A stretch of DNA of 64,000 bases from an uncultured Bacteriovoracaceae bacterium (GTDB lineage Bacteria > Bdellovibrionota > Bacteriovoracia > Bacteriovoracales > Bacteriovoracaceae), in the NCBI GenBank assembly GCA_964012805.1, contig CAXGUD010000009.1:1-64000 (forward strand), written 5' to 3'. The position numbers and the translations under genes were made by a program. Under the pieces are notes generated by a model. The model was not told the origin of the DNA. It made no database searches and saw nothing but the letters and a program-made list of their open reading frames with translations. Of this stretch, positions 25,678 through 37,962 are shown in pieces. Numbering within the stretch: the stretch's first letter is position 1; the number at the start of each line of letters is the position of its first letter.

Positions 25678-28600
25678 TTACTCAAAAGCGTAGTCTACCT
25701 TTGGAACAGAAAACTGATCATCCTTAACAGTCTGAGAAAGGTTACTTCTATTTTGCGGAAATAAAGCCATAAGGTCTTCACTCCCTTCACCACGAACAAG
25801 ACTTAGATTCACGGCTTTCCCAGCAGGAACCTCAATGGTCTCTGGCATACCTCTATAGCTCATTGCTTGAATTGAAGGATCTATCTCATACCACTTTGTT
25901 TTATGGTCAGACAGATAATCATCCATTTCTACAGCGCTCCTACTCTCGTGAAGTGCCGATATTTTAATGGCCAATTTGCCCTGGTCATTTCTTTTTAAAA
26001 GAGAAAGATCTACCTCAACAATTCCAACAGTGGACTGCTCATAGAACTTCATCATTGAAATTCCCTCTAAGGCCTGCTGGTAGTTTTGGGATGTTTTAGG
26101 CTTTTTATCAGCGATATCTCTTTCAAACACCGCTCTTAGCTCCCTCGCTTTATTTGCATTAAGTAAAATCGAATAAAAACCATTAGGAATTTTTGAAAAC
26201 CCAGGCACATACATGTTCCTGGTTCCTACGAGCTCCTGATCAGCTTTATTGTCTCCGTTAGAGTCAATCTGAACATTTAGCTCACAATGATGCCAAGTTG
26301 TAAGAGGTCTATAAAGCTTAAAACCTACCTGAAGGAACTCTTTATCCTGCCCAGAAGAATTTCTTCTTACAATACGGTACCCAGCAGCTTGCAAATCACA
26401 AATATCACTTTTAGAAAGGCGGTTCCTATCTTTGATCGGCTTCCTCTCATCTTTGCCAAGGAGGTTAAAAATTAGGGCTTCACCTTTATTTTTTCCGCTA
26501 TTCTTTAAAGTCAGGTTTGCCATTGCCTCTTGAGAGTCAGCTTCAGAAGTTGATTGAATTAAAATATTTTCAACACCTATTCTTGAAACTCGTTGAGATA
26601 TACCCAAAAACGGAACTCTTGAAACCTCAACTTTCGTTTCACTATCAATGAGGAAGATAAAACCACTAAGTTCTTCGAAGTCAGAATCACCTTTAGGAGC
26701 CTCATAAACAAACTGAACCATAACTTTTTTCGTTTCACCTGGGTTTAAAGAAACACTTTCTGGCAAAACCAATTTAAGTCCTTTAGGAGTCTCAGATCCG
26801 AACTTAATTGTTTTAACTTTTTCACTAATATTTTTTACTTCTAAGGTTTTCACACCAACTTTTTTAGACTCAACTAAAATGTTCCCTAAAGAAAGGCCGT
26901 AAGGAAGGACAACAAGAGGAGTCGTTGCTGCTTTGTAGGTTTGAACTCTACCAGCACCCTGCATAGAAACAGGATAAACTTTCTTGTCCTTACTTGCTAA
27001 AGTTTTAGCAGTATTCATAAGAATACCTTTTAACTCTTTAGGTGAAAGATCTCCTCTATACTGTTTTAAAAGTGCCATAACCCCTGCAATATGAGGACCT
27101 GACATAGAAGTTCCACTAAAGGCAACTCCTAAATCTCCTTTACCAACAAAAGCTGAAACAATCGCTTCACCTGGAGCCGTAATTTCAGGCTTTATGAGTG
27201 AGTCAATGGATCTAGGACCTCTTGAAGAAAAGTTAGTTAAAGTATCAATTAACTCACTTTTGATTATTTTTTTATCTGATCTAAATTTCAAAGTCACCGG
27301 ACCTTTTTCCATTTCACCTTTAAGGATATCGCCCTGAGACTGAGAAATCATAATTGCCGGAAAGTCTACTTTGCCCTCTCCCCCCATCATTATTGGAGCT
27401 CCAGGCTTATTATTAACAACCAAAGCTCCATTCGCTCCAGCTTTAAAGGCCCTCTTAAGCTTGTCAACAAAGGATACCTTTCCTCTATCAATAACAGCAA
27501 CTTTTCCCTTCAATTGAGAAGACTCTTCTTCCGTAAAGTCCCGAGCTGCGTCTGCATTGTCTTTAATATAAACTAATTCAAGAGGGCTAGAATCACTGCT
27601 TCTTATTGGTCTAGAAATACTCCCTTGTACAACTTCAACAAGAAGTGAGAAACCTTCAACTCCTGCAAAAGAGGAGGCTTCAAACTCTATGTTATGAGTC
27701 ATGTTGTCCACTGAGGCAGCAACGCTAATCGCTTCATCGGAAGTACTTGGAGAGCCAACGATATAGGGTGAGTGACCAGCATTTCCTGCAGAGGCAACAA
27801 CAACTGTCCCTCCTTCAACTAAGTTTTTAACGGCTTCACGATATAAGCTATGCGGTTCCCCAAAGCCGCCACCCAAAGAGAGGTTAACAACATCAAGCTG
27901 ATCATCTAAATTCAAATCTCCGTTAGGGTCAGCCGCATACTCAAGCCCAGCTATAACAACTGTGTCACCTGTTGAGCCATTTTTACCAAAGACCTTTATC
28001 GCGTGTAACGAAGCATCTGGTGCAACCCCAGAATATGTTTTTGTCCCATCTCCAATTCCTGCAACAGTTCCAGCTACATGGGTACCATGACCACTTTCGT
28101 CAATTGGATTTTTATCCGGCTTAGGGATTCGATCTTGTGGATTTGGAGAAGACAAATTGTATGAGCTTCCAACTAGATCAATACCGCCAACAACTTTCTG
28201 ATTTGGAAATTGGTCACTAGGCAAACTTGGATCAACCTCTTTATAAGCTTCAACCGTTCCCACTCCGCCAAGCATAGAGTGTGTATAATCAATACCACTA
28301 TCGATTACACCTACCGACATTCCACGACCTCTAACAGCACTTTCTTCACCGTCAGAAGAAGTTACCTTTAAATTTTCATGGACCTTATGAGCATTTATGA
28401 ATCTTACTGAATTCTTTTCCTTAAGGTTCAAGAATTTATTCTCTGAATTATCTCCGTCTTTTGGGTCTACGGTTTTATTAATATACGCTCTAGCAAATCG
28501 CCCCTCTTTCTCTAAACTCTTTATATGTGGCAACTTAGAGAGCTTAGACTGTGTATCTGGGTCAACAAGTAAAGCGAAAGCGTTCAAAACCATTCTATAC

Positions 28601-28929
28601 TTGTAAATTACTTTGATATCTGGAGAGATTTCCTTAACTGCTTTTAAAAACGCTTCTTGCTCTTTCAAAAGAGCTTCTTTCGACCTCTCATCAACTTTAG
28701 TTACACCATTAACCCTTTTAGCGACAGTAAGAAGGGGAGGTGAAGTCAGTTTAAAAAGCTGAACTGACGCTGACCGTTTTTGAGGCCTAATTGAAATGAC
28801 GTCACCTGGAGTAAAAGTCGCATCGTCTTGAACTTGTTGAGGATTCCCACAAGAGTAGCCCAATACAAGACAGGATAGTAGTAAAGAAACTTTAAAAAAC
28901 TTTTTAAAATGAAATATTGTCAACATCAC
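25678..28929 (-). CDS. S8 (subtilisin/Vpr-like) serine peptidase with I9 prodomain and PA domain, probable lipoprotein
   Basis: VIDSGIDY, HGTHVAG, SAGNAG, SGTSMSGPHIAG; PA insert (DRGKVSFVDK); lipobox-like LGYSC. Confidence 0.92.
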   Translation of the reverse strand: MMLTIFHFKKFFKVSLLLSCLVLGYSCGNPQQVQDDATFTPGDVISIRPQKRSASVQLFKLTSPPLLTVAKRVNGVTKVDERSKEALLKEQEAFLKAVKEISPDIKVIYKYRMVLNAFALLVDPDTQSKLSKLPHIKSLEKEGRFARAYINKTVDPKDGDNSENKFLNLKEKNSVRFINAHKVHENLKVTSSDGEESAVRGRGMSVGVIDSGIDYTHSMLGGVGTVEAYKEVDPSLPSDQFPNQKVVGGIDLVGSSYNLSSPNPQDRIPKPDKNPIDESGHGTHVAGTVAGIGDGTKTYSGVAPDASLHAIKVFGKNGSTGDTVVIAGLEYAADPNGDLNLDDQLDVVNLSLGGGFGEPHSLYREAVKNLVEGGTVVVASAGNAGHSPYIVGSPSTSDEAISVAASVDNMTHNIEFEASSFAGVEGFSLLVEVVQGSISRPIRSSDSSPLELVYIKDNADAARDFTEEESSQLKGKVAVIDRGKVSFVDKLKRAFKAGANGALVVNNKPGAPIMMGGEGKVDFPAIMISQSQGDILKGEMEKGPVTLKFRSDKKIIKSELIDTLTNFSSRGPRSIDSLIKPEITAPGEAIVSAFVGKGDLGVAFSGTSMSGPHIAGVMALLKQYRGDLSPKELKGILMNTAKTLASKDKKVYPVSMQGAGRVQTYKAATTPLVVLPYGLSLGNILVESKKVGVKTLEVKNISEKVKTIKFGSETPKGLKLVLPESVSLNPGETKKVMVQFVYEAPKGDSDFEELSGFIFLIDSETKVEVSRVPFLGISQRVSRIGVENILIQSTSEADSQEAMANLTLKNSGKNKGEALIFNLLGKDERKPIKDRNRLSKSDICDLQAAGYRIVRRNSSGQDKEFLQVGFKLYRPLTTWHHCELNVQIDSNGDNKADQELVGTRNMYVPGFSKIPNGFYSILLNANKARELRAVFERDIADKKPKTSQNYQQALEGISMMKFYEQSTVGIVEVDLSLLKRNDQGKLAIKISALHESRSAVEMDDYLSDHKTKWYEIDPSIQAMSYRGMPETIEVPAGKAVNLSLVRGEGSEDLMALFPQNRSNLSQTVKDDQFSVPKVDYAFE

Positions 28930-29294
28930 TTATAGGCTCCTTCGTCCTCTTAAGAATTTAAAGCGAAACTCTTATAAAGGAATCGATCTCTTCAGTGGAT
29001 AAACTCGTCCGGGCCTTAAACCAAGATACTTACTTCCACGAAACAAGGTAACTTAACTCAAGGAGTAAGATTTTGAAAGTCCCGCTGAATCAAAGCACAA
29101 CAAAATGCAGACAGTCACAAGAAGTTCTTCTAGTAAAATCAGATAATTATACTTTTGTCTGCCAATCTATGATTTTTTAACACTGTTTAAATGATAAAAA
29201 AAGTCAAAAATTGGCCGTTTCCAAAGGCCATATGGAGACATTTTGACACCACTTATCTCCTTTACAGATAGGAGCTAAAGTCAGTTTAGGATGT

Positions 29295-32200
29295 TTAGTC
29301 TTTCTTTTTTGGTAAAAAGAAAGGGTGACAATACTTTGCGAAAGTCGAGTAAATTTCCTTACCACTCACCTCTTCATCTACAATCTGATTAATAAGTGGT
29401 TGGATTCTATTTATGAGGCCTTTTGTTTCGTAATCGTTTAAAACTACAATAATAGGTATCCTATAATTTTGGTTATTACGATCTCCCCTCACCTCCTTAA
29501 CGATAAACTCCCCGTGCCCTTTGGCCAATTTCATATGCGTAATCAAACAATGAAATTTTTGGTTTTGTAAAAACTTGACGGCCTGGTGCGAATGAGAGGT
29601 AGAAAAAACTTTAATCTTTTCATCATTAAACTTTTCTGAAAGCCTTACCGCGGTTCCCTTATCATTCACAGCGATAAGGACTGACAAAGGGCTATTACCC
29701 ATGTAAGTGTGCTCTGGTTTTATATTTTCAGATTTATTTTTATTAAGTGCAATAGAAAAGTCCCTGAGACCTTTCTGGGGCTTTTTTGCGACTTTTTTAA
29801 CTTGTTTCTTAGAGGCCTTTTTTGCTTGAATCCCAGAACCTCCTTTAAGAAGCGCCCCCTCATTTTCAACTGGCTGATCACCAATGACTGCTTCTTCACC
29901 AATGACTGCTTCTTCACCAATGACTGCTTCTTCACCAATGACTGCTTCTTCACCAATAACTTCGTCAGCATCATTTTGGTAGGGGTCTAGTTCTTTATCC
30001 GTGAAGGAAACTTCTTCATCTTTTAAATCTGAGCCCTCTGATTCATAAAAACCCTTAAGAAGTCTGCATACCTCTTCTCCATCAATATCACTTTCTTCTT
30101 CTTTCAATGAAAGGTCTTTCCTAAATTGATTAAATATTTCAAAGGCCATGGGGTAAGAATTCGACATGCTTGGTGTCGTTAATTTAGAAACGTCGTCCAA
30201 GATGTAAAGAGAAATGGCTTCTATTTCCTTCGCCTCTGATAAGTAGTTAAACCAAAAACCAGATGAAGTGGAACATATATTTTTCCAGGATGTCTCATCA
30301 CTTATCCATGCTTTTGCAGAGTTTATTCCTGTTTTCCACCTAAGAGAAAAAGCAAGGTAATTCTCGAAACTACTCATTTGAATACTAACAACGCGACCCT
30401 CGTTCCCTGACTCTTTCTTTACAAAGTTCAAAATGCTTTTTATGGCCAGGTTTAGTTTTAATGAAAAATCTTTGAGGTCTACTCCCTCTTTTTGGAGATT
30501 ATTAAAGAGAGCTTCAAGGTTTCCTTTAATCCGATCTTTATCATCACACTGAAATTCAGTCGTAAATATTTTTTGCCCTGACGGAAAAATGCTATAAATT
30601 CCACCATAGAAAGGTCTCGCAAGAAGAGTTAGAAAGTTTTTAAATACTGTACGCCCTCTATCTATTGGAATAAATAAACCTGGTACAAAGCTATTGGCAG
30701 GATCATGCTTTTTGTTGAAACTTATTATTCTTAACTCACCCCTCTCAATTCTTTTTTCAAAATTTGTGGGAAGTTGAAATGGCAGCTCTCTCAGCCAAGC
30801 TGGAGGAACCAAAACGGAAAAGATACCTTCCATTTTCATCCGGCTCAACTCTACAACCCAATCTATTTGCTCTATGTTCCAAAGTTTAACAACATTGTAT
30901 CTTGCACTTTTTAATAGTATTTCGGTAAGTTCTTTTTCGTTAAAAGAATAATGGTCAAAAACTTTTTTTACATACAAAATGGTATGAGTCTTTTTGTTCA
31001 ATAAAGCCTGTTCAGGCTGGATCTCGATTTCTTCATCACCCAAACTTAGCTCTTCCCTTTCATCTGTTTCAGTTAGAACCGGTCCATCCAATTCAATTTC
31101 CTCTTCCTCGAAATAGAGATTGACAACCTCTTTATCAAAGTTAGATGGAAGTGCCTTTTCGGTTGTTGTAGAAACGAGTATTTCTTGAGTTGTCTCTTTC
31201 TCCTCGACCTTATCTTGCCCCTTCAGCCTCATCTCTGTAAAGATATCGACACCAAGAGAATAAGCATTGTCTATGGCCGGAACTGAGTTCTCACCATCGA
31301 TCGCAAAACTGTACAAAATAAGAGCTTCCACTTCACTTGTTTTAGGAAAAAAGTTAAACCAGCTACCGGAAGTCGAAGAGCATATTTTCTTCCAAACTGG
31401 TATATCCTTTGACCAATCCAAAACAGAGTTTTTGCCTGTCTTCCATCTTATTGAGAGAGCAAAAAGGTTATTAGCATAACCCATTTTCATTTCTACATTT
31501 TTAGGAGGGTTTGGTTCAATCATTGTCACAGCGTGAAGAATAGTTTTTGCACCAACTGCTACTTTAGTTTTATGAAGCATAAGCTTTCTAGCTTTCTTCA
31601 TTAAACTATCATATAAGGTATCCAAAGACTTTGAAGCTCTGTTCAACTCAGTTGTTTTGGCCATTGAATAAATATTTGTATTAACTGGAAACAAAGCATG
31701 AATTCCAGAGTAGTGAGCTTGACCCACAAGAGGAACCATCCCTTCTAATATTAAACTTCCTCGATCACTTGGTATGGAGAGAATCGGTAACTTAAAATAG
31801 GGTAACTCGCCCTTTTTTTGAAGACAAGAAATCCTTAATTTTCCATCTCTAACATGCTTGATAAATAAATCTGGCTCATTCTTTCCTTCAAGAAGCCAAA
31901 GTGAGGGGACAAAAAGAGTAACGACTTCATCCCCAACAAGGGAGACAGCCTCGTTCATCCAATTCTCTTGAGTTGCATTCCAGTTTTGTATCTTAACACC
32001 GCCGCTAGCTTCGATAATAGAGCTCAAATCCTTTAGAGTTACCCCATGCCCTGAAATTGCAGTTTTCACGACATAAATACCATGGCCAGTTCCTATTTCC
32101 ATTTTTTCTGTTTCTGGTCTTACATCACGTTCTTCTAACTCTTCTTTTTTAATTCCAACATACTTCTTCAAAATTAAGTTTTGGGAATCAGCGATCCCAA

Positions 32201-33095
32201 AAGTTTCAATTAATGAGTTAACTGAACTGCCACCCACAGGAAAAATTTTTAAACCTAAAGAGTAAGCATTCGTAATTTGTGGAAAAGAGTTTTGAGCGTC
32301 CATTGCAAAAGAAATTAACCCAAAAGCCTCAATAGTATTATTTTCTGGAAAAAAATTAAACCAAAGAGAACTGGTGGATGAAGCAATTCCTGTTAAAGAA
32401 TTATTTTCCTCAACTAGCGCTTTAACATTAGATAAACTCGTTTTCCAGCGGCATGAAAAGCCAAATAAGTTATTAGCAAAACCTAAACTTATTTCTATTT
32501 TATCAGGCCTTTTTGCTTCATGATCATAAATCCATCTTATGAGTGACTTTAAAGCGATACTTACCTTAACTTTGTGAAGCATTAGCTTTTTAACTTTTTT
32601 AAGAAATTCTTTAAAAAGTTGTTCTAGATCAAATGAGAGTGTCTCTAGACCCGTTATATTATTATGGGCCAAAACTTCTGTTTGTTGAGGAAAGAAAGAG
32701 TGTAAACCTCTATCTACACTATCTCCCATTAAATTTACCATGGCTTCAAGAATTAAACTTCCCCTATCGCTAGGTATACTTAAACTAGGAAATGTGTAAT
32801 TAGGGGCATCAAGCTTTTTATTAAAATAAACAATTCTAACCCTTCCAGAATTCAAAGCATCAAGAAAGTCTCCGGGAAGACTATCGGGAGCAGTTAGGGC
32901 CCAAACAGATGGAATGATTACAGTTGAAACACCATTACTGACAAGGTTGGAGATCTCTTTAACCCAATTACCCTGGTGAGCATTCCACTCAACTATCTCT
33001 ACATCTTCAATAGTCTCTAGAAGCAAATTAAGGTCTTGAAAACTAATTCCTTGACCTAAAACAGACCTTTTACTTACATAGATTGTATGGTTCAT
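29295..33095 (-). CDS. 1266-aa protein with three ~285-aa internal repeats and a C-terminal pseudo-receiver domain
   Basis: Repeated motifs W-N..W, (V/I)P.xW, IP(S/I)DRG, RWKT, WFN and N(A/S)Y at aa ~3-285, 338-619 and 704-988; C-terminal SVLIAV...CLITHMKL...IPIIVV resembles REC. Confidence 0.8.
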   Translation of the reverse strand: MNHTIYVSKRSVLGQGISFQDLNLLLETIEDVEIVEWNAHQGNWVKEISNLVSNGVSTVIIPSVWALTAPDSLPGDFLDALNSGRVRIVYFNKKLDAPNYTFPSLSIPSDRGSLILEAMVNLMGDSVDRGLHSFFPQQTEVLAHNNITGLETLSFDLEQLFKEFLKKVKKLMLHKVKVSIALKSLIRWIYDHEAKRPDKIEISLGFANNLFGFSCRWKTSLSNVKALVEENNSLTGIASSTSSLWFNFFPENNTIEAFGLISFAMDAQNSFPQITNAYSLGLKIFPVGGSSVNSLIETFGIADSQNLILKKYVGIKKEELEERDVRPETEKMEIGTGHGIYVVKTAISGHGVTLKDLSSIIEASGGVKIQNWNATQENWMNEAVSLVGDEVVTLFVPSLWLLEGKNEPDLFIKHVRDGKLRISCLQKKGELPYFKLPILSIPSDRGSLILEGMVPLVGQAHYSGIHALFPVNTNIYSMAKTTELNRASKSLDTLYDSLMKKARKLMLHKTKVAVGAKTILHAVTMIEPNPPKNVEMKMGYANNLFALSIRWKTGKNSVLDWSKDIPVWKKICSSTSGSWFNFFPKTSEVEALILYSFAIDGENSVPAIDNAYSLGVDIFTEMRLKGQDKVEEKETTQEILVSTTTEKALPSNFDKEVVNLYFEEEEIELDGPVLTETDEREELSLGDEEIEIQPEQALLNKKTHTILYVKKVFDHYSFNEKELTEILLKSARYNVVKLWNIEQIDWVVELSRMKMEGIFSVLVPPAWLRELPFQLPTNFEKRIERGELRIISFNKKHDPANSFVPGLFIPIDRGRTVFKNFLTLLARPFYGGIYSIFPSGQKIFTTEFQCDDKDRIKGNLEALFNNLQKEGVDLKDFSLKLNLAIKSILNFVKKESGNEGRVVSIQMSSFENYLAFSLRWKTGINSAKAWISDETSWKNICSTSSGFWFNYLSEAKEIEAISLYILDDVSKLTTPSMSNSYPMAFEIFNQFRKDLSLKEEESDIDGEEVCRLLKGFYESEGSDLKDEEVSFTDKELDPYQNDADEVIGEEAVIGEEAVIGEEAVIGEEAVIGDQPVENEGALLKGGSGIQAKKASKKQVKKVAKKPQKGLRDFSIALNKNKSENIKPEHTYMGNSPLSVLIAVNDKGTAVRLSEKFNDEKIKVFSTSHSHQAVKFLQNQKFHCLITHMKLAKGHGEFIVKEVRGDRNNQNYRIPIIVVLNDYETKGLINRIQPLINQIVDEEVSGKEIYSTFAKYCHPFFLPKKKD
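29878..29957. repeat. Perfect 18-bp tandem repeat (4 copies + partial) encoding EEAVIG on the minus strand
   Basis: TCACCAATGACTGCTTCT x4 followed by TCACCAAT. Confidence 0.95.
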
Positions 33096-36000
33096 TCTTT
33101 TCCCTCTAAATCAACCTTTTTTGAAAAACTCTCAACAGCTTTAACACCCTCCTGAAACTCTTTTTCAGAGACTGATAAAACAAAACGGCAATAATCAGGT
33201 ATACCTGTCCATTCACTACCATTTATAAGGATACCTGTAGAGAAAAAGAATGCCTCGTAAAAATTTTGTGAATTTAAAATATAATTTTTTTCTTCGGAAA
33301 AGTGACTAGAATTAACTGTTATTTTCTTCCCAAAATAACTTCTTGGAGCAGCCACTAAAAAAAGGCCTCCTTCCGCAGGAAGCACATCCCAGCGGGCTTC
33401 CTTAAGCTTTTTAGTTAAAAACAAAGCTCGATTTCTTAGAAGAGATCTTTGCTCGGCCAGAAATGTTACAAGTGAGGGATGTGAATCATTAAACTTCTTT
33501 ATAATCTTCTTCACTGCGTAAAGTGTAGCGAAATGAGGCTCAAATGAATTCATTTCGCTTAAGTTTTTGGCAATTTCTGAATGAGAACAAAGGGCATAAC
33601 CAAAACGTAACCCACCAGCTGCGAAAAGCTTTGAAACACCTCCAAGCATTACCCATTCAAAATCATCATTAAGAACTTTTCCAATTTTTGTCATTTTAAT
33701 TGTAGAATCAAACTCTAAACCATTAAAAACATGGTCCAAAATAAGCCTTGCTTGATGGGACTTGATGACTTCAATAAGCTCAATAATCTCCTCTTCTCTA
33801 TAAAGGGCTCCAGTTGGGTTTACTACTGGAAAGTTTAAAAATACGTATGCTCCTTTTTTATTTTCTAAGGCCTTATTAAGAGCTGATGGGGTAAATTTAA
33901 ATGAATCCTTCTCTTCGGTTGAAAAAGTAGAAGCATCCGCTCCCACAAATCCTGCACAAGCGACAAATTCTCCATAGGCACCCTGTGGAAAAATTATAGG
34001 ATATTTCTCTATTGCACAAATTTTACTCAGGGAGTGAAAAAGTGGCGCAATACCATTGCCATAAATAAATGATTTTTTGTGCAGTTCTCCTCTAGTGAAG
34101 CCAAAAGACTTTTCAAACATTCTTTTTAGATCTTCATCAGGTTCATAATCTTGTTTGTTTAAAGAAAATGGATTTCTTAAAAAGCCTTCAAACAAATCAA
34201 TTCTTAAATCCTTCGGAATAGGAAAACTATTTTCTCCATAGTCAAGCCTTACTGTCTTATCATCACGAGGCAATCTCTCTCTCGCCATTGAAGGGTGCTC
34301 CATCATTTCAACAGCATCTACTGCCAAGGGCTTAAATTTTTTTTCAATATCGTTCGAAACACCTCTTTTAAGAGAAACTTCTTTTTTTTGTCCATCCTCT
34401 AAAAGTCTAAAACTTAATAGTTCATCGAGAAGAACTTCATAATAAAACTGGGTTAAAATTGGTGTTCGACTATAAGATAATTCTGCGGCTGAATTCAACT
34501 GCTGTACTAAAGGAGCGTTTCCAATTAGGGAAAAACAAAGCCTTAAATTTTCATAAACCCTATTTTTAAATAAGTCGCAATTTATAATCACATGATCTGG
34601 CAAAGACTTTTCTCTTAAATAGGAAAGGATTGCATTCTTTTGTGGCTGACTTGAAATATCAAAATAATCAGACATATCCAGGATAAGGCGTGTAGAATTT
34701 TCTTTCGTTACATTAAAAATTCTTTCAACATTTTCTTCCAACTCATTTTCAAAAGTATTAAAAAAACAAACAAGTAAATCTGGTTTTAATTTTTCAACTA
34801 AGTCTTCAATCAACTTTACTCTTCTCGGGCAAGCGAACGACTCTACTTCCCAGGGGTAAAACTCACTCATTCTTTTTAGTTGTGGATCTTGATCAAAAAG
34901 AACTTCATCTATAAGAACTAATTTGGGCCTGTAAAGGAGAAGAATATTATTTATACACTCGTGCCTCGATGGAGAAATTAAAATTTGATCTTGATTGACA
35001 GGCAAATGATAATAAGAAGTCAGAAAGCGCGACAGTTTCATTCTCAATTCAGATCGGCCTTGAGTTTTCTCATAGGGGAGAAGTGAAGGTGATCTTAATA
35101 CTTCAGATAGTTCAGATAAAAAGTTTACTCTTTCCTCAAAAATATCTTTCTCATTAGAGTAAAGGTCCATAAGCTGCTTTGCTTCTGAAAAAGAATCACT
35201 CTCTAAAAAGTTTAAAATGTTCTTCACTTCTCTTCTTTTGGGAAGATGGGCTTCATAAACACTTAACGAATGTGCTATTCTTCCACCATTTTTAGAAAAG
35301 ACCTCTGCTGTTTGGGCATTAATAGGCTCTCTTGCATCAAGACCCATAAAAAACTCAAACTTATGACCCGTCCTTTTTTCAATTTCTACAAGGACTTTAA
35401 TATCAGTATCTTCGGCTTGAAGAACCTTTGTTGACCATAGTTTATTTACTGTAAAACCTCTTCTCTTAAAGAGTTCTTCCAAAATAGCTGTCCCAGGTCT
35501 CCCTCCCAAATTCATTATAACAGACCCTCCTGCCTTGAGAACTTGTAGTGACTCCTCAAGTGCCGAGGCGATTAGCCCTAAACCGAACTCATCTTCAAGG
35601 TGACCTTTGATACTGCAATAATTACTTAAGTCGTAAAGCTGTTCATCGCTTGAATGCTCAGAAATATTTTGGATTAATTTTTCTGGATCAGGGCTTAAAA
35701 CCTGGGGAATACACCCAATAACCTTATCAAGAAATATTTCTTTTTCAATTATGAGAGAAAGAAGGTCACTTTCTTCAAAAAGGACACTCTCCCATAAATT
35801 TTTCCCTGAATAAGTTTTAGCTGCTTTACCATCTTGATCAAACGAATTAAAAGCTAAGTTTAGTTTTGCACAAATTATGGCCCTTGGGTTTATGTCCAAA
35901 CCATAAATAAAATCTAAGTCTGTATTTAAAGCAAGAGATAAACATATCCAGCCATTTCCACAACCCAATTCAGAAATTTTCTTCCCTGTAAAAGTCGAGT

Positions 36001-36319
36001 GCGGCAACCTGGATAAACCTTCATAAAAAGTAAATGACCACTCCTCAGGGGAAAAGATACTAGGGAATTGAATCAACCTAAGTTTATTTCTGTGACCTCC
36101 CAAAAGAATCGTTTTAAAATTAAAGTGATACTTCTCTAAAAAGATGTCTTTATCATTCTCTTTTTCATAGAATTCAAAAAGAAGATTAAGGCACTCGTAG
36201 GTGTTTTTAATTTCCTCTATCTCAGAAGATTCGAATAGAATTCCCTTAAAAGCTTCATAAGCTTTTTGACTGGATAATTCACACTCTTTAAGAAAATTTT
36301 CAATAGAAAAATGGGTCAT
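33092..36319 (-). CDS. Plant-type methionine S-methyltransferase (MMT-like: SAM methyltransferase + PLP aminotransferase-like domains)
   Basis: PSIFSPEEWSFTFYEGL, ELGCGNGW, GLDINPRA, ESDLL, IGCIPQVL, LSNYC, EDEFGLGLIA, GGRPG, QAEDTDI, FEFFMGL, IAHSLSVY match plant MMT; C-terminal NPTG and GGVSK..GGLRFG; 1075 aa. Confidence 0.88.
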   Translation of the reverse strand: MTHFSIENFLKECELSSQKAYEAFKGILFESSEIEEIKNTYECLNLLFEFYEKENDKDIFLEKYHFNFKTILLGGHRNKLRLIQFPSIFSPEEWSFTFYEGLSRLPHSTFTGKKISELGCGNGWICLSLALNTDLDFIYGLDINPRAIICAKLNLAFNSFDQDGKAAKTYSGKNLWESVLFEESDLLSLIIEKEIFLDKVIGCIPQVLSPDPEKLIQNISEHSSDEQLYDLSNYCSIKGHLEDEFGLGLIASALEESLQVLKAGGSVIMNLGGRPGTAILEELFKRRGFTVNKLWSTKVLQAEDTDIKVLVEIEKRTGHKFEFFMGLDAREPINAQTAEVFSKNGGRIAHSLSVYEAHLPKRREVKNILNFLESDSFSEAKQLMDLYSNEKDIFEERVNFLSELSEVLRSPSLLPYEKTQGRSELRMKLSRFLTSYYHLPVNQDQILISPSRHECINNILLLYRPKLVLIDEVLFDQDPQLKRMSEFYPWEVESFACPRRVKLIEDLVEKLKPDLLVCFFNTFENELEENVERIFNVTKENSTRLILDMSDYFDISSQPQKNAILSYLREKSLPDHVIINCDLFKNRVYENLRLCFSLIGNAPLVQQLNSAAELSYSRTPILTQFYYEVLLDELLSFRLLEDGQKKEVSLKRGVSNDIEKKFKPLAVDAVEMMEHPSMARERLPRDDKTVRLDYGENSFPIPKDLRIDLFEGFLRNPFSLNKQDYEPDEDLKRMFEKSFGFTRGELHKKSFIYGNGIAPLFHSLSKICAIEKYPIIFPQGAYGEFVACAGFVGADASTFSTEEKDSFKFTPSALNKALENKKGAYVFLNFPVVNPTGALYREEEIIELIEVIKSHQARLILDHVFNGLEFDSTIKMTKIGKVLNDDFEWVMLGGVSKLFAAGGLRFGYALCSHSEIAKNLSEMNSFEPHFATLYAVKKIIKKFNDSHPSLVTFLAEQRSLLRNRALFLTKKLKEARWDVLPAEGGLFLVAAPRSYFGKKITVNSSHFSEEKNYILNSQNFYEAFFFSTGILINGSEWTGIPDYCRFVLSVSEKEFQEGVKAVESFSKKVDLEGKE

Positions 36320-36495: not shown

Positions 36496-37962
36496 ATGAT
36501 TGAATCACTACAAAAACTTTTCAAGTCAACTATAGGAAGAGCTCTTATTTTAAGGATTCTAGTTTTTAGTGGCCTTGTGACTCTTTTTATAAGTATTTAC
36601 CAAGTTTATGATGATTATTCGCATGCAATTTCATCAATTGAAAAAGAAATTGGTCAAATTAAAAAGGCTTACCAAAGCCCTTTAGCGCATAGTCTATGGA
36701 ACTTTAATACAAACCAAATTAAACAAATTATAAGTGGGCTTGCAAACTTTCCGTCAATTACCTTTATCGAGGTCACAGACAGTGCTGGAGATTTTCAGTT
36801 CTCAGCTGGGTCTAAGGAATCAAACATCCTGATTTTTGAATTTCCGCTTTTCTTCAGCTCCAAGTACAGCAAAAAACAAGAAGTTGGTTCAATCTACATT
36901 CAATCTTCTAAAAAACCTGTTTTAGAAAAAATTAGAAATAGAGTGTTAATAATATTATTTTCACAAGGTATTAAAACTTTTATTGTCTCTATATTTATTA
37001 TCATACTCATTAAGGTTAGTATCACAGACCATCTTCACGATATATCTGAGACCCTAAGTCAATTTAAAACAGGGGACATTAATACTTTCCAAAAAGACAA
37101 TAAATTTAGTGTCATTTCTCTTCAAAAGAAAACCCAGGATGATGAAATTGATATCGTTGTAGAAAAATTGAACATTTTCATAACTGAACTTTATAAGTCA
37201 ACGGCTGAAATCCATTCTCTTAACTTCAATCTCGAAAAACTAGTGGATTTAAAAACTAAGGAACTCAGATCGGCCCTTCTTCAAAATGAAAACCTAATTA
37301 GAGTTCTTATACATGACATCGGAAACCCATTGAGTGGAATAATTTTTTCAATTGATCGACTTACTAGACAATATACTTTAAAGGAGCCCATACAAGGGTC
37401 TAAGCTAAAACTAGCCCAGGAAAGCTGTGACAAGATTCTAGAAATCATTAACTTTGTCAAAGATATAAAGTCTTTAGAGTCTGGGAAAAAACAACTTACT
37501 CTTAGCAAAATTGACTTATTTCCCATTATTGAAAATATTAAAGAGAATTTTCACCACCAATTTAGAAATAAAAAGCTAGAACTTAAAACAATATATTCCA
37601 AAAAGCCTTTTTTTGTTATGGCCGAACGAATTAGCTTATCAAATAGCGTTCTATCCAACCTTGTTTCCAACGCTATCAAATTCTCTCACTTTGGATCAGT
37701 AATCACCATCGAGTGCTTTTTTATGGAAAATAAAGCTTTTGTAGCAATAAAAAACTTAAATGCAAAAATTCCACCCGAAATTTTGACCAACCTCTTCGAC
37801 TTTCATAAAGCGACAACAATTAAAGGCCTTGCAGGAGAAGAGGGTACAGGCTTCGGCCTTCCTATTGTAAAGATGTTTGCGCAATACAATAATGGCGATA
37901 TCACAGTAAGTTCAACAAAAGAGGAAACAGTCTTCACTCTAAGCCTTCAATTGGCCAAATAA
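36496..37962 (+). CDS. Membrane sensor histidine kinase
   Basis: Two TMs, periplasmic domain, H-box LIHDIGNPL, NLVSNAIKFS, GTGFGL. Confidence 0.9.
   Translation: MIESLQKLFKSTIGRALILRILVFSGLVTLFISIYQVYDDYSHAISSIEKEIGQIKKAYQSPLAHSLWNFNTNQIKQIISGLANFPSITFIEVTDSAGDFQFSAGSKESNILIFEFPLFFSSKYSKKQEVGSIYIQSSKKPVLEKIRNRVLIILFSQGIKTFIVSIFIIILIKVSITDHLHDISETLSQFKTGDINTFQKDNKFSVISLQKKTQDDEIDIVVEKLNIFITELYKSTAEIHSLNFNLEKLVDLKTKELRSALLQNENLIRVLIHDIGNPLSGIIFSIDRLTRQYTLKEPIQGSKLKLAQESCDKILEIINFVKDIKSLESGKKQLTLSKIDLFPIIENIKENFHHQFRNKKLELKTIYSKKPFFVMAERISLSNSVLSNLVSNAIKFSHFGSVITIECFFMENKAFVAIKNLNAKIPPEILTNLFDFHKATTIKGLAGEEGTGFGLPIVKMFAQYNNGDITVSSTKEETVFTLSLQLAK

What the first reader, a model, noticed from the sequence alone, without database searches (positions are those of the whole stretch)
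29295..36319. Candidate new system: plant-type Met S-methyltransferase translationally coupled to a giant triple-repeat pseudo-signalling protein
Seen: the MMT-like stop and the start of the 1266-aa gene overlap as ATGA (33092-33095), so the two look like one translationally coupled operon. A sensor kinase is transcribed divergently from 36496. Known: MMT makes S-methylmethionine (SMM), a methyl/sulfur store and a DMSP precursor. Inference: an SMM-producing enzyme may be physically or regulatorily linked to a multi-module scaffold or sensor. I know of no described system with this pairing.
Basis: partly seen in the sequence, partly recalled or inferred. Interest (0 to 1): 0.8.

Follow-up and report, generated by a model that had tools for sequence, protein, structure and literature searches.

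The report
Known methyltransferase beside disabled signalling repeats
A bacterial copy of the plant enzyme that likely makes S-methylmethionine overlaps a gene built from three copies of an unnamed module predicted to be a disabled signalling switch, but the two were found side by side in only one genus, so they likely do not form a new system.

Summary
In detail: two intact minus-strand genes (1075 and 1266 aa) overlap as ATGA, with a divergent sensor kinase. Gene 1 is a Group III (plant-like) methionine S-methyltransferase, a kind already reported in Oligoflexia and Deltaproteobacteria (45% identical to the Pseudobacteriovorax enzyme); it keeps a PLP lysine that plant-like copies lack. Gene 2 is three copies of a ~285-aa module plus a pseudo-receiver. 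The module is predicted to fold as receiver + RsbW/SpoIIAB-type anti-sigma domain, like Leptospira LvrC, but lacks the phosphorylation and ATP-binding motifs. The pair occurs only in near-identical relatives (88-100%): 1 of 40 clusters of metagenomic MMT loci, 2 of 237 family genomes. Other MMT genes abut unrelated genes just as tightly. The module's relatives elsewhere lie upstream of HD-type and another unnamed receiver-like gene. One genome has both genes, unlinked. Two paralogues in this genome lie away from MMT. Verdict: likely a genus-restricted juxtaposition, probably co-transcribed. The unnamed pseudo-receiver/pseudo-RsbW family is the more interesting by-product.

The parts
33092..36319 (-). 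Group III (plant-like) methionine S-methyltransferase gene, 1075 aa (P0001)
35240..36091 (-). MmtN-like SAM methyltransferase domain (about aa 77-360): GCGNG 119-123, D142, SDL 184-186, C203
   Evidence: PDB 7vvv match E 2e-10 over aa 89-322; these columns invariant in 45 of 45 rows of A1
33110..34282 (-). C-terminal class I/II aminotransferase-fold domain with PLP-site residues N834, D862, K897, R905, R1045
   Evidence: PF00155 E 9e-30; fold matches, target TM about 0.8; residues; role of the residues recalled from the fold-type I family
33092..33095 (-). ATGA stop/start overlap, preceded by a GAGGG run inside the MMT gene
29295..33095 (-). 1266-aa protein (P0002): three pseudo-receiver/pseudo-RsbW modules, acidic linkers, C-terminal pseudo-receiver; no clear membrane segment
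32241..33095 (-). Module 1 (aa 1-285): predicted receiver-like 1-128 and RsbW/SpoIIAB-type Bergerat fold 133-265; catalytic motifs absent
31236..32087 (-). Module 2 (aa 337-620), 42% identical to module 1
30129..30992 (-). Module 3 (aa 702-989), 28-30% identical to modules 1 and 2
29851..29973 (-). 18-nt tandem repeat (six-residue unit) in the third, acidic linker; source of the weak hexapeptide hits
29298..29693 (-). C-terminal pseudo-receiver domain (His at the phospho-Asp position, read from the motif register)
   Evidence: PF00072 E 2.6e-4, below cut-off; dN/dS 0.011
36496..37962 (+). Divergent CHASE5-HisKA-HATPase_c sensor kinase; syntenic in G001 and L052 only; not regarded as part of a system

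Best explanation
The two genes overlap by four bases and are likely co-transcribed, but they were found together only in this genus and likely work independently: the first likely makes S-methylmethionine, and the second, three copies of a module predicted to fold as a receiver plus RsbW-type anti-sigma domain without the catalytic motifs, likely acts as a phosphorylation-independent binding scaffold. MMT: SAM + Met -> SMM (inferred from family membership), with an intact-looking PLP site that may run a second, unknown reaction (inferred). It is a patchily distributed gene that sits in many unrelated operons, probably by repeated transfer (inferred). Partner: descended from a single-module Bdellovibrionota gene that normally lies upstream of HD-type phosphohydrolase and another unnamed receiver-like gene (shown); in this genus the module occurs in one-, two- and three-copy paralogues at three unlinked loci (shown). 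It most likely binds a sigma factor or STAS protein as RsbW/SpoIIAB do, or an HD-GYP-type partner, without phosphorylating it (inferred; about equal odds).
For: Pair found in 2 of 80 metagenomic MMT loci (L051 100%, L052 92% identical); of 47 full-length loci with >=1 kb downstream, 45 lack the module with the widest profile, i.e. 39 of 40 clusters at 90% (one of the 45, L100, is plant-like). Family: MMT in 3 of 237 genomes, module in 3 of 237, both in 2 (G000, G001). G004 (34% MMT, 75% complete) has a convergent ACPS-family gene downstream. Phylum sample: MMT in 5 of 401; downstream genes are pfk (1-nt gap, G077), proB-proA-proC (G343), aconitase (G226). ATGA coupling to an SDR gene in L112 and L117. 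Module relatives G264, G328, G348, G353 lead HD-type/X clusters; 5 more (of 20 regions fetched upstream of X) lie 13-20 nt upstream of X; none of these 9 had an MMT match. G343 has both genes on different contigs, the module 10 nt upstream of an HD-motif gene. Paralogues on C36 and C52 have no MMT nearby. Fold: pLDDT 81.5; LvrC best Foldseek hit, E 4e-6; the six rows with Z >= 8.8 among 48,161 chains are all RsbW/SpoIIAB-type (Z 8.8-10.5, rmsd 2.7-3.4, 103-127 aligned); N-terminal part matches receivers at Z 5.1-5.5; Atlas neighbours of the relative P0133 carry HATPase_c_2. No ExxxNA, DxG or GxG in 15 of 15 modules; Pro or Ser/Glu at the phospho-Asp position.
Against: Both genes are rare in the family (3 of 237 each) yet meet in the same genus, and the ATGA overlap and GAGGG run persist across dS of about 1.0-1.4. 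Genomes without a match are samples and some are incomplete. In G077 an intact-looking 336-aa Bergerat protein lies about 7.5 kb from MMT, six genes away; it does not score against the module profile. The receiver assignment rests on middling Z scores (about 5.4), and motif loss was read from secondary-structure register, not a residue-level superposition. No expression or binding data.
Confidence: 0.72

Rival explanations
1. Genus-specific co-regulation without contact: the juxtaposition began by chance but is now selected, because both products are needed under the same condition (for example osmotic or sulfur stress) and share one promoter, perhaps set by the divergent kinase.
For: Overlap, GAGGG run and the 176-177-nt divergent spacer are conserved in G000, G001 and L052; both genes are rare in the family yet adjacent here; MMT sits beside proline-synthesis genes in two other MMT clades, hinting at a stress role.
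Against: The flanking protease and kinase are equally syntenic and equally diverged, so the conservation is what ordinary synteny at 85-92% identity gives. Promoter and terminator scans are at chance level (20 vs 19.2; 7 vs 5.1).
Confidence: 0.2
2. One reading: the three-module protein binds or regulates MMT directly, tying SMM (and possibly DMSP) synthesis to a signalling network.
For: Translational-coupling-type overlap; both products look cytoplasmic; the MMT groups with the one Group III strain reported to make DMSP; pseudo-enzymes often act as scaffolds (own knowledge).
Against: 39 of 40 MMT locus clusters lack the partner; module relatives have other conserved neighbours; G343 has both, unlinked; two paralogues of the module are unlinked in this genome.
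Confidence: 0.06
3. The 1266-aa gene is a decaying or functionless duplication product.
For: All recognisable catalytic motifs are absent; no Pfam family over cut-off.
Against: dN/dS 0.019-0.048 in each module and 0.011 in the C-terminal pseudo-receiver; the motifs are absent in all 15 modules of the family, so the loss is old; confident predicted fold.
Confidence: 0.02

Closest known systems
Bacterial Group III (plant-like) MMT of Peng et al. 2022 (PMC9135737), e.g. Pseudobacteriovorax antillogorgiicola WP_132317935.1 (P0005)
   Same: Methyltransferase + aminotransferase architecture, 45% identity over 1027 aa, same clade with support 100 in a FastTree tree; not linked to DMSP or Met-cycle genes, as the paper states for Group III.
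   Different: Different host family within the Bdellovibrionota-type predators; downstream gene is the module protein. Activity not tested here.
Plant MMT (EC 2.1.1.12), represented by four plant-like loci L094, L095, L100, L102
   Same: Same architecture, 34-36% identity, same SAM-site motifs.
   Different: These four lack the PLP lysine and the following arginine that P0001 keeps (K897, R905). Their plant origin is inferred from the tree and the lack of neighbouring genes.
MmtN of Roseovarius indicus (PDB 7vvv)
   Same: N-terminal domain homologous (E 2e-10); GxGxG, Asp69 and Cys121 equivalents kept.
   Different: MmtN is a 305-aa single domain in DMSP gene clusters; its Met-binding Glu127, Arg132, Glu250 align to S209, K214, K320.
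LvrC of Leptospira (PDB 9qih; PMC13269768), receiver + RsbW-type Bergerat anti-sigma domain
   Same: Same predicted two-domain order and size (about 290 aa); best Foldseek hit, Bergerat part Z 8.8-9.1, rmsd 3.1-3.2 over 119 residues.
   Different: LvrC has a canonical phospho-Asp and was crystallised with ADP; the module lacks those motifs, shares only 10-11% identity, and is repeated three times with an extra pseudo-receiver.
RsbW / SpoIIAB / UsfX / SiaB anti-sigma kinases (PDB 6m36, 1l0o, 8ih8, 6kko)
   Same: Fold of aa 133-265, Z 9.3-10.5.
   Different: No N-box, G1 or G2 motif in any of 15 modules; no sigma or STAS gene beside it in the stretch read.

Membership tests
Group III (plant-like) MMT | About 115 kDa, MmtN-like N-terminal domain plus C-terminal aminotransferase domain | tested here: met
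Group III (plant-like) MMT | GxGxG and SAM-binding residues (MmtN Asp69, Ser101/Leu102, Cys121) | tested here: met
   G119/G121/G123, D142, C203 invariant in 45 of 45; SDL 184-186 at the Ser101/Leu102 position, register inferred
Group III (plant-like) MMT | Met-binding residues (MmtN Glu127, Arg132, Glu250) | tested here: inconclusive
   Align to S209, K214, K320; the first two columns vary across all 45 Group III-type rows, and an invariant E322 lies two residues on. The paper's Supplementary Fig. 11 was not seen.
Group III (plant-like) MMT | Groups with named Group III members | tested here: met
   Clade with P0005, SH-like 100, FastTree on 64 rows, midpoint root
Group III (plant-like) MMT | SAM-dependent Met S-methylation activity | not testable with these tools
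   needs an enzyme assay
Group I/II MmtN pathway clusters | Linked DMSP-synthesis, NRPS or homocysteine S-methyltransferase genes | tested here: not met
   Neighbours are the module protein, a subtilase, a sensor kinase and an acyltransferase; the only PF02574 match in the genome lies in a 1236-codon frame, read as MetH
LvrC-type receiver-anti-sigma regulator | Receiver domain followed by RsbW-type Bergerat domain | tested here: met
   Predicted model only: Bergerat part Z 8.8-10.5, receiver part Z 5.1-5.5
LvrC-type receiver-anti-sigma regulator | Phospho-acceptor Asp, acidic pocket and conserved Lys in the receiver | tested here: not met
   Pro62 after strand 3, S-K-R after strand 1, Ile107 in module 1; no Asp at the Pro62 column in the 10 rows that fill it
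LvrC-type receiver-anti-sigma regulator | ATP-binding N, G1 and G2 boxes | tested here: not met
   No ExxxNA, DxG or GxG in 15 of 15 modules; Trp/Phe mostly at the G1 Asp position (motifs recalled)
LvrC-type receiver-anti-sigma regulator | Dimer through the Bergerat domain | not tested
LvrC-type receiver-anti-sigma regulator | Binds a sigma factor or STAS protein | not testable with these tools
   partner unknown
Conserved MMT-scaffold system (proposed) | Adjacency kept across independent lineages | tested here: not met
   1 of 40 MMT locus clusters; 2 of 237 family genomes, one genus; unlinked in G343
Conserved MMT-scaffold system (proposed) | One transcript across 33092 | tested here: inconclusive
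   No RNA holder listed; two short contigs only

The most novel reading that the evidence does not exclude
In this marine predator-lineage genus a triple pseudo-receiver/pseudo-RsbW protein has been recruited as a dedicated, phosphorylation-independent switch for a two-site MMT, so that a sigma-factor or cyclic-di-GMP stress network controls synthesis of S-methylmethionine and of a PLP-dependent product on the way to DMSP; this would be the first regulator of a bacterial plant-type MMT and the first function for an unnamed Bdellovibrionota module family.
Probability: 0.07. Interest if true: 0.75.

Novelty: new variant of a known kind. Interest (0 to 1): 0.3.

Why it matters
As a system it probably does not matter: the enzyme class is described and the pairing is local. 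Two by-products have value. First, the module defines an apparently unnamed Bdellovibrionota family (no Pfam match over cut-off; not found in literature searches) with LvrC-like architecture but no catalytic motifs, usually upstream of HD-type or another unnamed receiver-like gene, which gives a testable entry into signalling of predatory bacteria. Second, this MMT is a close relative of the one Group III strain reported to make DMSP and keeps a PLP site, which bears on the open question, stated by Peng et al., of what SMM does in these bacteria.

Tried and rejected
RNA evidence: no RNA holder listed; four metatranscriptome runs gave two short matching contigs, none across the junction; uninformative. 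Promoter and terminator scans at chance level; a hairpin plus U-run after the partner's stop (29195-29240, z -2.2) has a broken stem in G001, so no terminator is claimed. Sequence searches of the module against PDB, Pfam, NCBIfam and the Atlas with module 1 itself (44) gave nothing usable; coiled-coil hits and G407 come from tail columns of A3 and were dropped. P0142 and P0144 were rejected as repeat-driven hits. Hexapeptide/LpxD hits are due to the 18-nt repeat. The genome-contig scan with a single query found only G001's record. The last protein search covered only 1177-3360 aa and found none; weak. Codon use and GC3 of both genes are within the genome's range, no sign of recent transfer. 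The IQ-TREE run did not finish; FastTree was used, and G004's partial sequence is a long branch of unsure place. Testing joint insertion of the pair in G002 failed because of a contig end. An SMM cycle closed by a stand-alone homocysteine methyltransferase was not found in this genome. The recalled intact Bergerat family of Myxococcota/Bdellovibrionota had no motif match in this genome and no significant score to the module, so descent from it rests on the fold and Atlas neighbours only.
Full report
Observation. The window is contig C9 of a 4.47-Mb genome; the nearest record with a title is a Halobacteriovoraceae MAG. Two minus-strand ORFs, 33092-36319 (1075 aa, P0001) and 29295-33095 (1266 aa, P0002), overlap as ATGA. 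A GAGGG run precedes the second start; both features are kept in G001 and L052. A CHASE5 sensor kinase diverges from 36496 and a subtilase follows 365 nt downstream. Such overlaps are common here: 106 of 1688 co-directional ORF pairs allow ATGA (crude ORF calls). Against G001 both genes are under purifying selection (dN/dS 0.059 and 0.049; dS 1.0 and 1.4), like the flanking protease and kinase.

Gene 1. P0001 has an N-terminal domain matching MmtN (7vvv, E 2e-10) and a C-terminal aminotransferase fold. A search returned 839 relatives at E <= 0.001, the best 120 full length at 37-92%, many named methionine S-methyltransferase. P0005 is the Pseudobacteriovorax antillogorgiicola protein, 45% identical over 1027 aa and in the same clade (support 100, FastTree). 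Peng et al. 2022 (PMC9135737; passages, section 14 whole; figures and supplements not seen) state that some Deltaproteobacteria and Oligoflexia carry plant-like Group III MMT, that it is not linked to DMSP, NRPS or Met-cycle genes, and that only P. antillogorgiicola of four tested strains made DMSP. GxGxG, D142 and C203 are invariant in 45 of 45 aligned rows; the MmtN Met-binding residues do not map cleanly. P0001 keeps N834, D862, K897, R905 and R1045, while four plant-like loci lack the Lys and R905 equivalents; earlier AI notes prompted this check and are not independent support. The genome's only PF02574 match is in a MetH-sized frame.

Gene 2. P0002 holds three modules (aa 1-285, 337-620, 702-989; 28-42% identical), acidic linkers and a weak C-terminal receiver. 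Module 1 folded at pLDDT 81.5, pTM 0.82 from 18 sequences. Foldseek's best hit is LvrC of Leptospira, then SpoIIAB, UsfX and RsbW. Among 48,161 chains the six rows with Z >= 8.8 are all RsbW/SpoIIAB-type over aa 133-265 (Z 8.8-10.5), the next is 6.6; aa 1-128 match receivers at Z 5.1-5.5, a middling score. LvrC is described as a receiver joined to a Bergerat anti-sigma domain, phosphorylated on Asp53 and crystallised with ADP (PMC13269768, passages). Atlas neighbours of the relative P0133 (score 0.87-0.92) are Myxococcota/Bdellovibrionota hypothetical clusters and HATPase_c_2 or receiver-HATPase_c_2 proteins. The module has Pro at the phospho-Asp position, Ile at the Lys position, and no N, G1 or G2 motif in 15 of 15 family members (motifs recalled, register from predicted secondary structure). 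So it is built like LvrC but fails membership: a pseudo-receiver/pseudo-kinase.

Is the pair conserved? No, beyond one genus. Of 80 metagenomic MMT loci kept from 131, only L051 (100%) and L052 (92%) carry the partner. Restricting to 47 full-length loci with at least 1 kb downstream and using the widest module profile, 45 lack it: 39 of 40 clusters at 90% identity (one is plant-like). In 237 family genomes MMT matched in G000, G001, G004 and the module in G000, G001, G002. G004's MMT is followed by a convergent ACPS-family gene. In 401 phylum genomes MMT matched in 5: downstream lie pfk (1-nt gap), proB-proA-proC, aconitase, and nothing module-like on G296's 5-kb contig. Neighbours of 45 scanned flanking ORFs are heterogeneous, and L112 and L117 show ATGA overlaps with an SDR gene. 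The divergent kinase is not kept outside the genus either.

Where the module belongs. This genome has two more paralogues: two modules plus ankyrins on C36, one module plus acidic repeats and a pseudo-receiver on C52, neither near MMT. Outside the genus a profile found single-module genes in G264, G328, G348 and G353 (G407 dropped as a tail match). In three an unnamed receiver-like, Trp-rich gene (X) lies within 2 kb downstream, in two with an HD-domain gene between; in the fourth the next gene begins like those HD proteins but has no Pfam match. X matched in 99 of 401 genomes, not in G000. Of 20 regions fetched upstream of X, 5 had a module gene 13-20 nt upstream and 15 did not (selected on X, so not an unbiased count); these 5 had no MMT match. 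Of 5 MMT-positive genomes searched, G343 has a module gene, on another contig and 10 nt upstream of an HD-motif gene.

Against this reading. Both genes are rare in the family yet meet in one genus, and the junction is conserved at dS about 1. The best tests were out of reach: P0004's locus (64%) could not be fetched and G002's contig ends inside the protease. An intact-looking Bergerat gene lies 7.5 kb from MMT in G077, unrelated by profile. No RNA evidence and no complex model were obtained.

Mechanism. Shown: intact genes, overlap, repeats, motif loss, neighbourhoods. Inferred: MMT makes SMM from SAM and Met and may use its PLP site for a second step; the partner binds other signalling proteins (a sigma or STAS protein, or an HD-GYP-type enzyme) without phosphoryl transfer; the two share a transcript because MMT came to lie upstream of one paralogue. 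I put this at 0.72, selected co-regulation at 0.2, direct linkage at 0.06.

Novelty. The MMT is a new member of a known kind. The pairing was not found in print but is not a conserved system. The module family was not found in Pfam, NCBIfam, PDB sequences or two literature searches (listings and abstracts only), and is best called a new, catalytically disabled and tandem-repeated variant of the receiver-RsbW architecture. Williams et al. 2019, cited by Peng et al. for the strain tests, was not read. Interest 0.3.

Noticed in passing
L150 105-8775; L152 6888-10991; L151 7451-11290; L153 6065-11652; L210-L214; L230 3-2373: Recurrent Bdellovibrionota cluster: single-module pseudo-receiver/pseudo-RsbW gene with coiled-coil tail, HD-type phosphohydrolase gene and an unnamed receiver-like Trp-rich gene X (99 of 401 phylum genomes, no Pfam match). 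Looks like an undescribed signalling unit and deserves its own look.
   Followed up: partly
G000:C36:19943-22939 (-) and G000:C52:1772-4486 (+): Paralogues with two modules plus ankyrin repeats, and one module plus long acidic repeats and a pseudo-receiver; the C52 orthologue in G001 is interrupted by a stop after the module (L049 2121-3101, 3117-4835).
   Followed up: partly
window 33629-33631 and surroundings: PLP lysine K897 with D862, R905 and R1045 kept in P0001 (K in 44 of 45 rows of A1) but missing in four plant-like loci; possible second reaction.
   Followed up: partly
L137 5825-11725; L076, L077, L078, L080, L085: MMT lies beside proline-synthesis genes (proB, proA, proC) in two separate MMT clades, a hint at an osmoprotective role for SMM.
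   Followed up: partly
L104, L105, L115-L117, L119, L122, L125-L128: A distant MMT clade (about 29% identity) keeps a TPR-caspase gene upstream and an SDR gene downstream, often overlapping.
   Followed up: no
window 29851-29973: 18-nt in-frame tandem repeat in the partner's third linker; G001's protein is 7 aa shorter, perhaps by copy number (not checked).
   Followed up: no
window 25678-28929 (-): 1083-aa subtilase (I9, S8, PA, Fn3-like) with a lipoprotein-like start, 365 nt downstream of the partner; present in G001 and G002.
   Followed up: no
L179 4545-5552 (+): 336-aa protein with intact-looking N-box, DxxG and GxG motifs and no Pfam match in the part scanned, 7.5 kb from MMT in G077; probably the active kin of the module fold.
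   Followed up: partly
P0061, P0121: MMT proteins named from Rotaria (rotifer) assemblies group among bacterial sequences in the tree.
   Followed up: no
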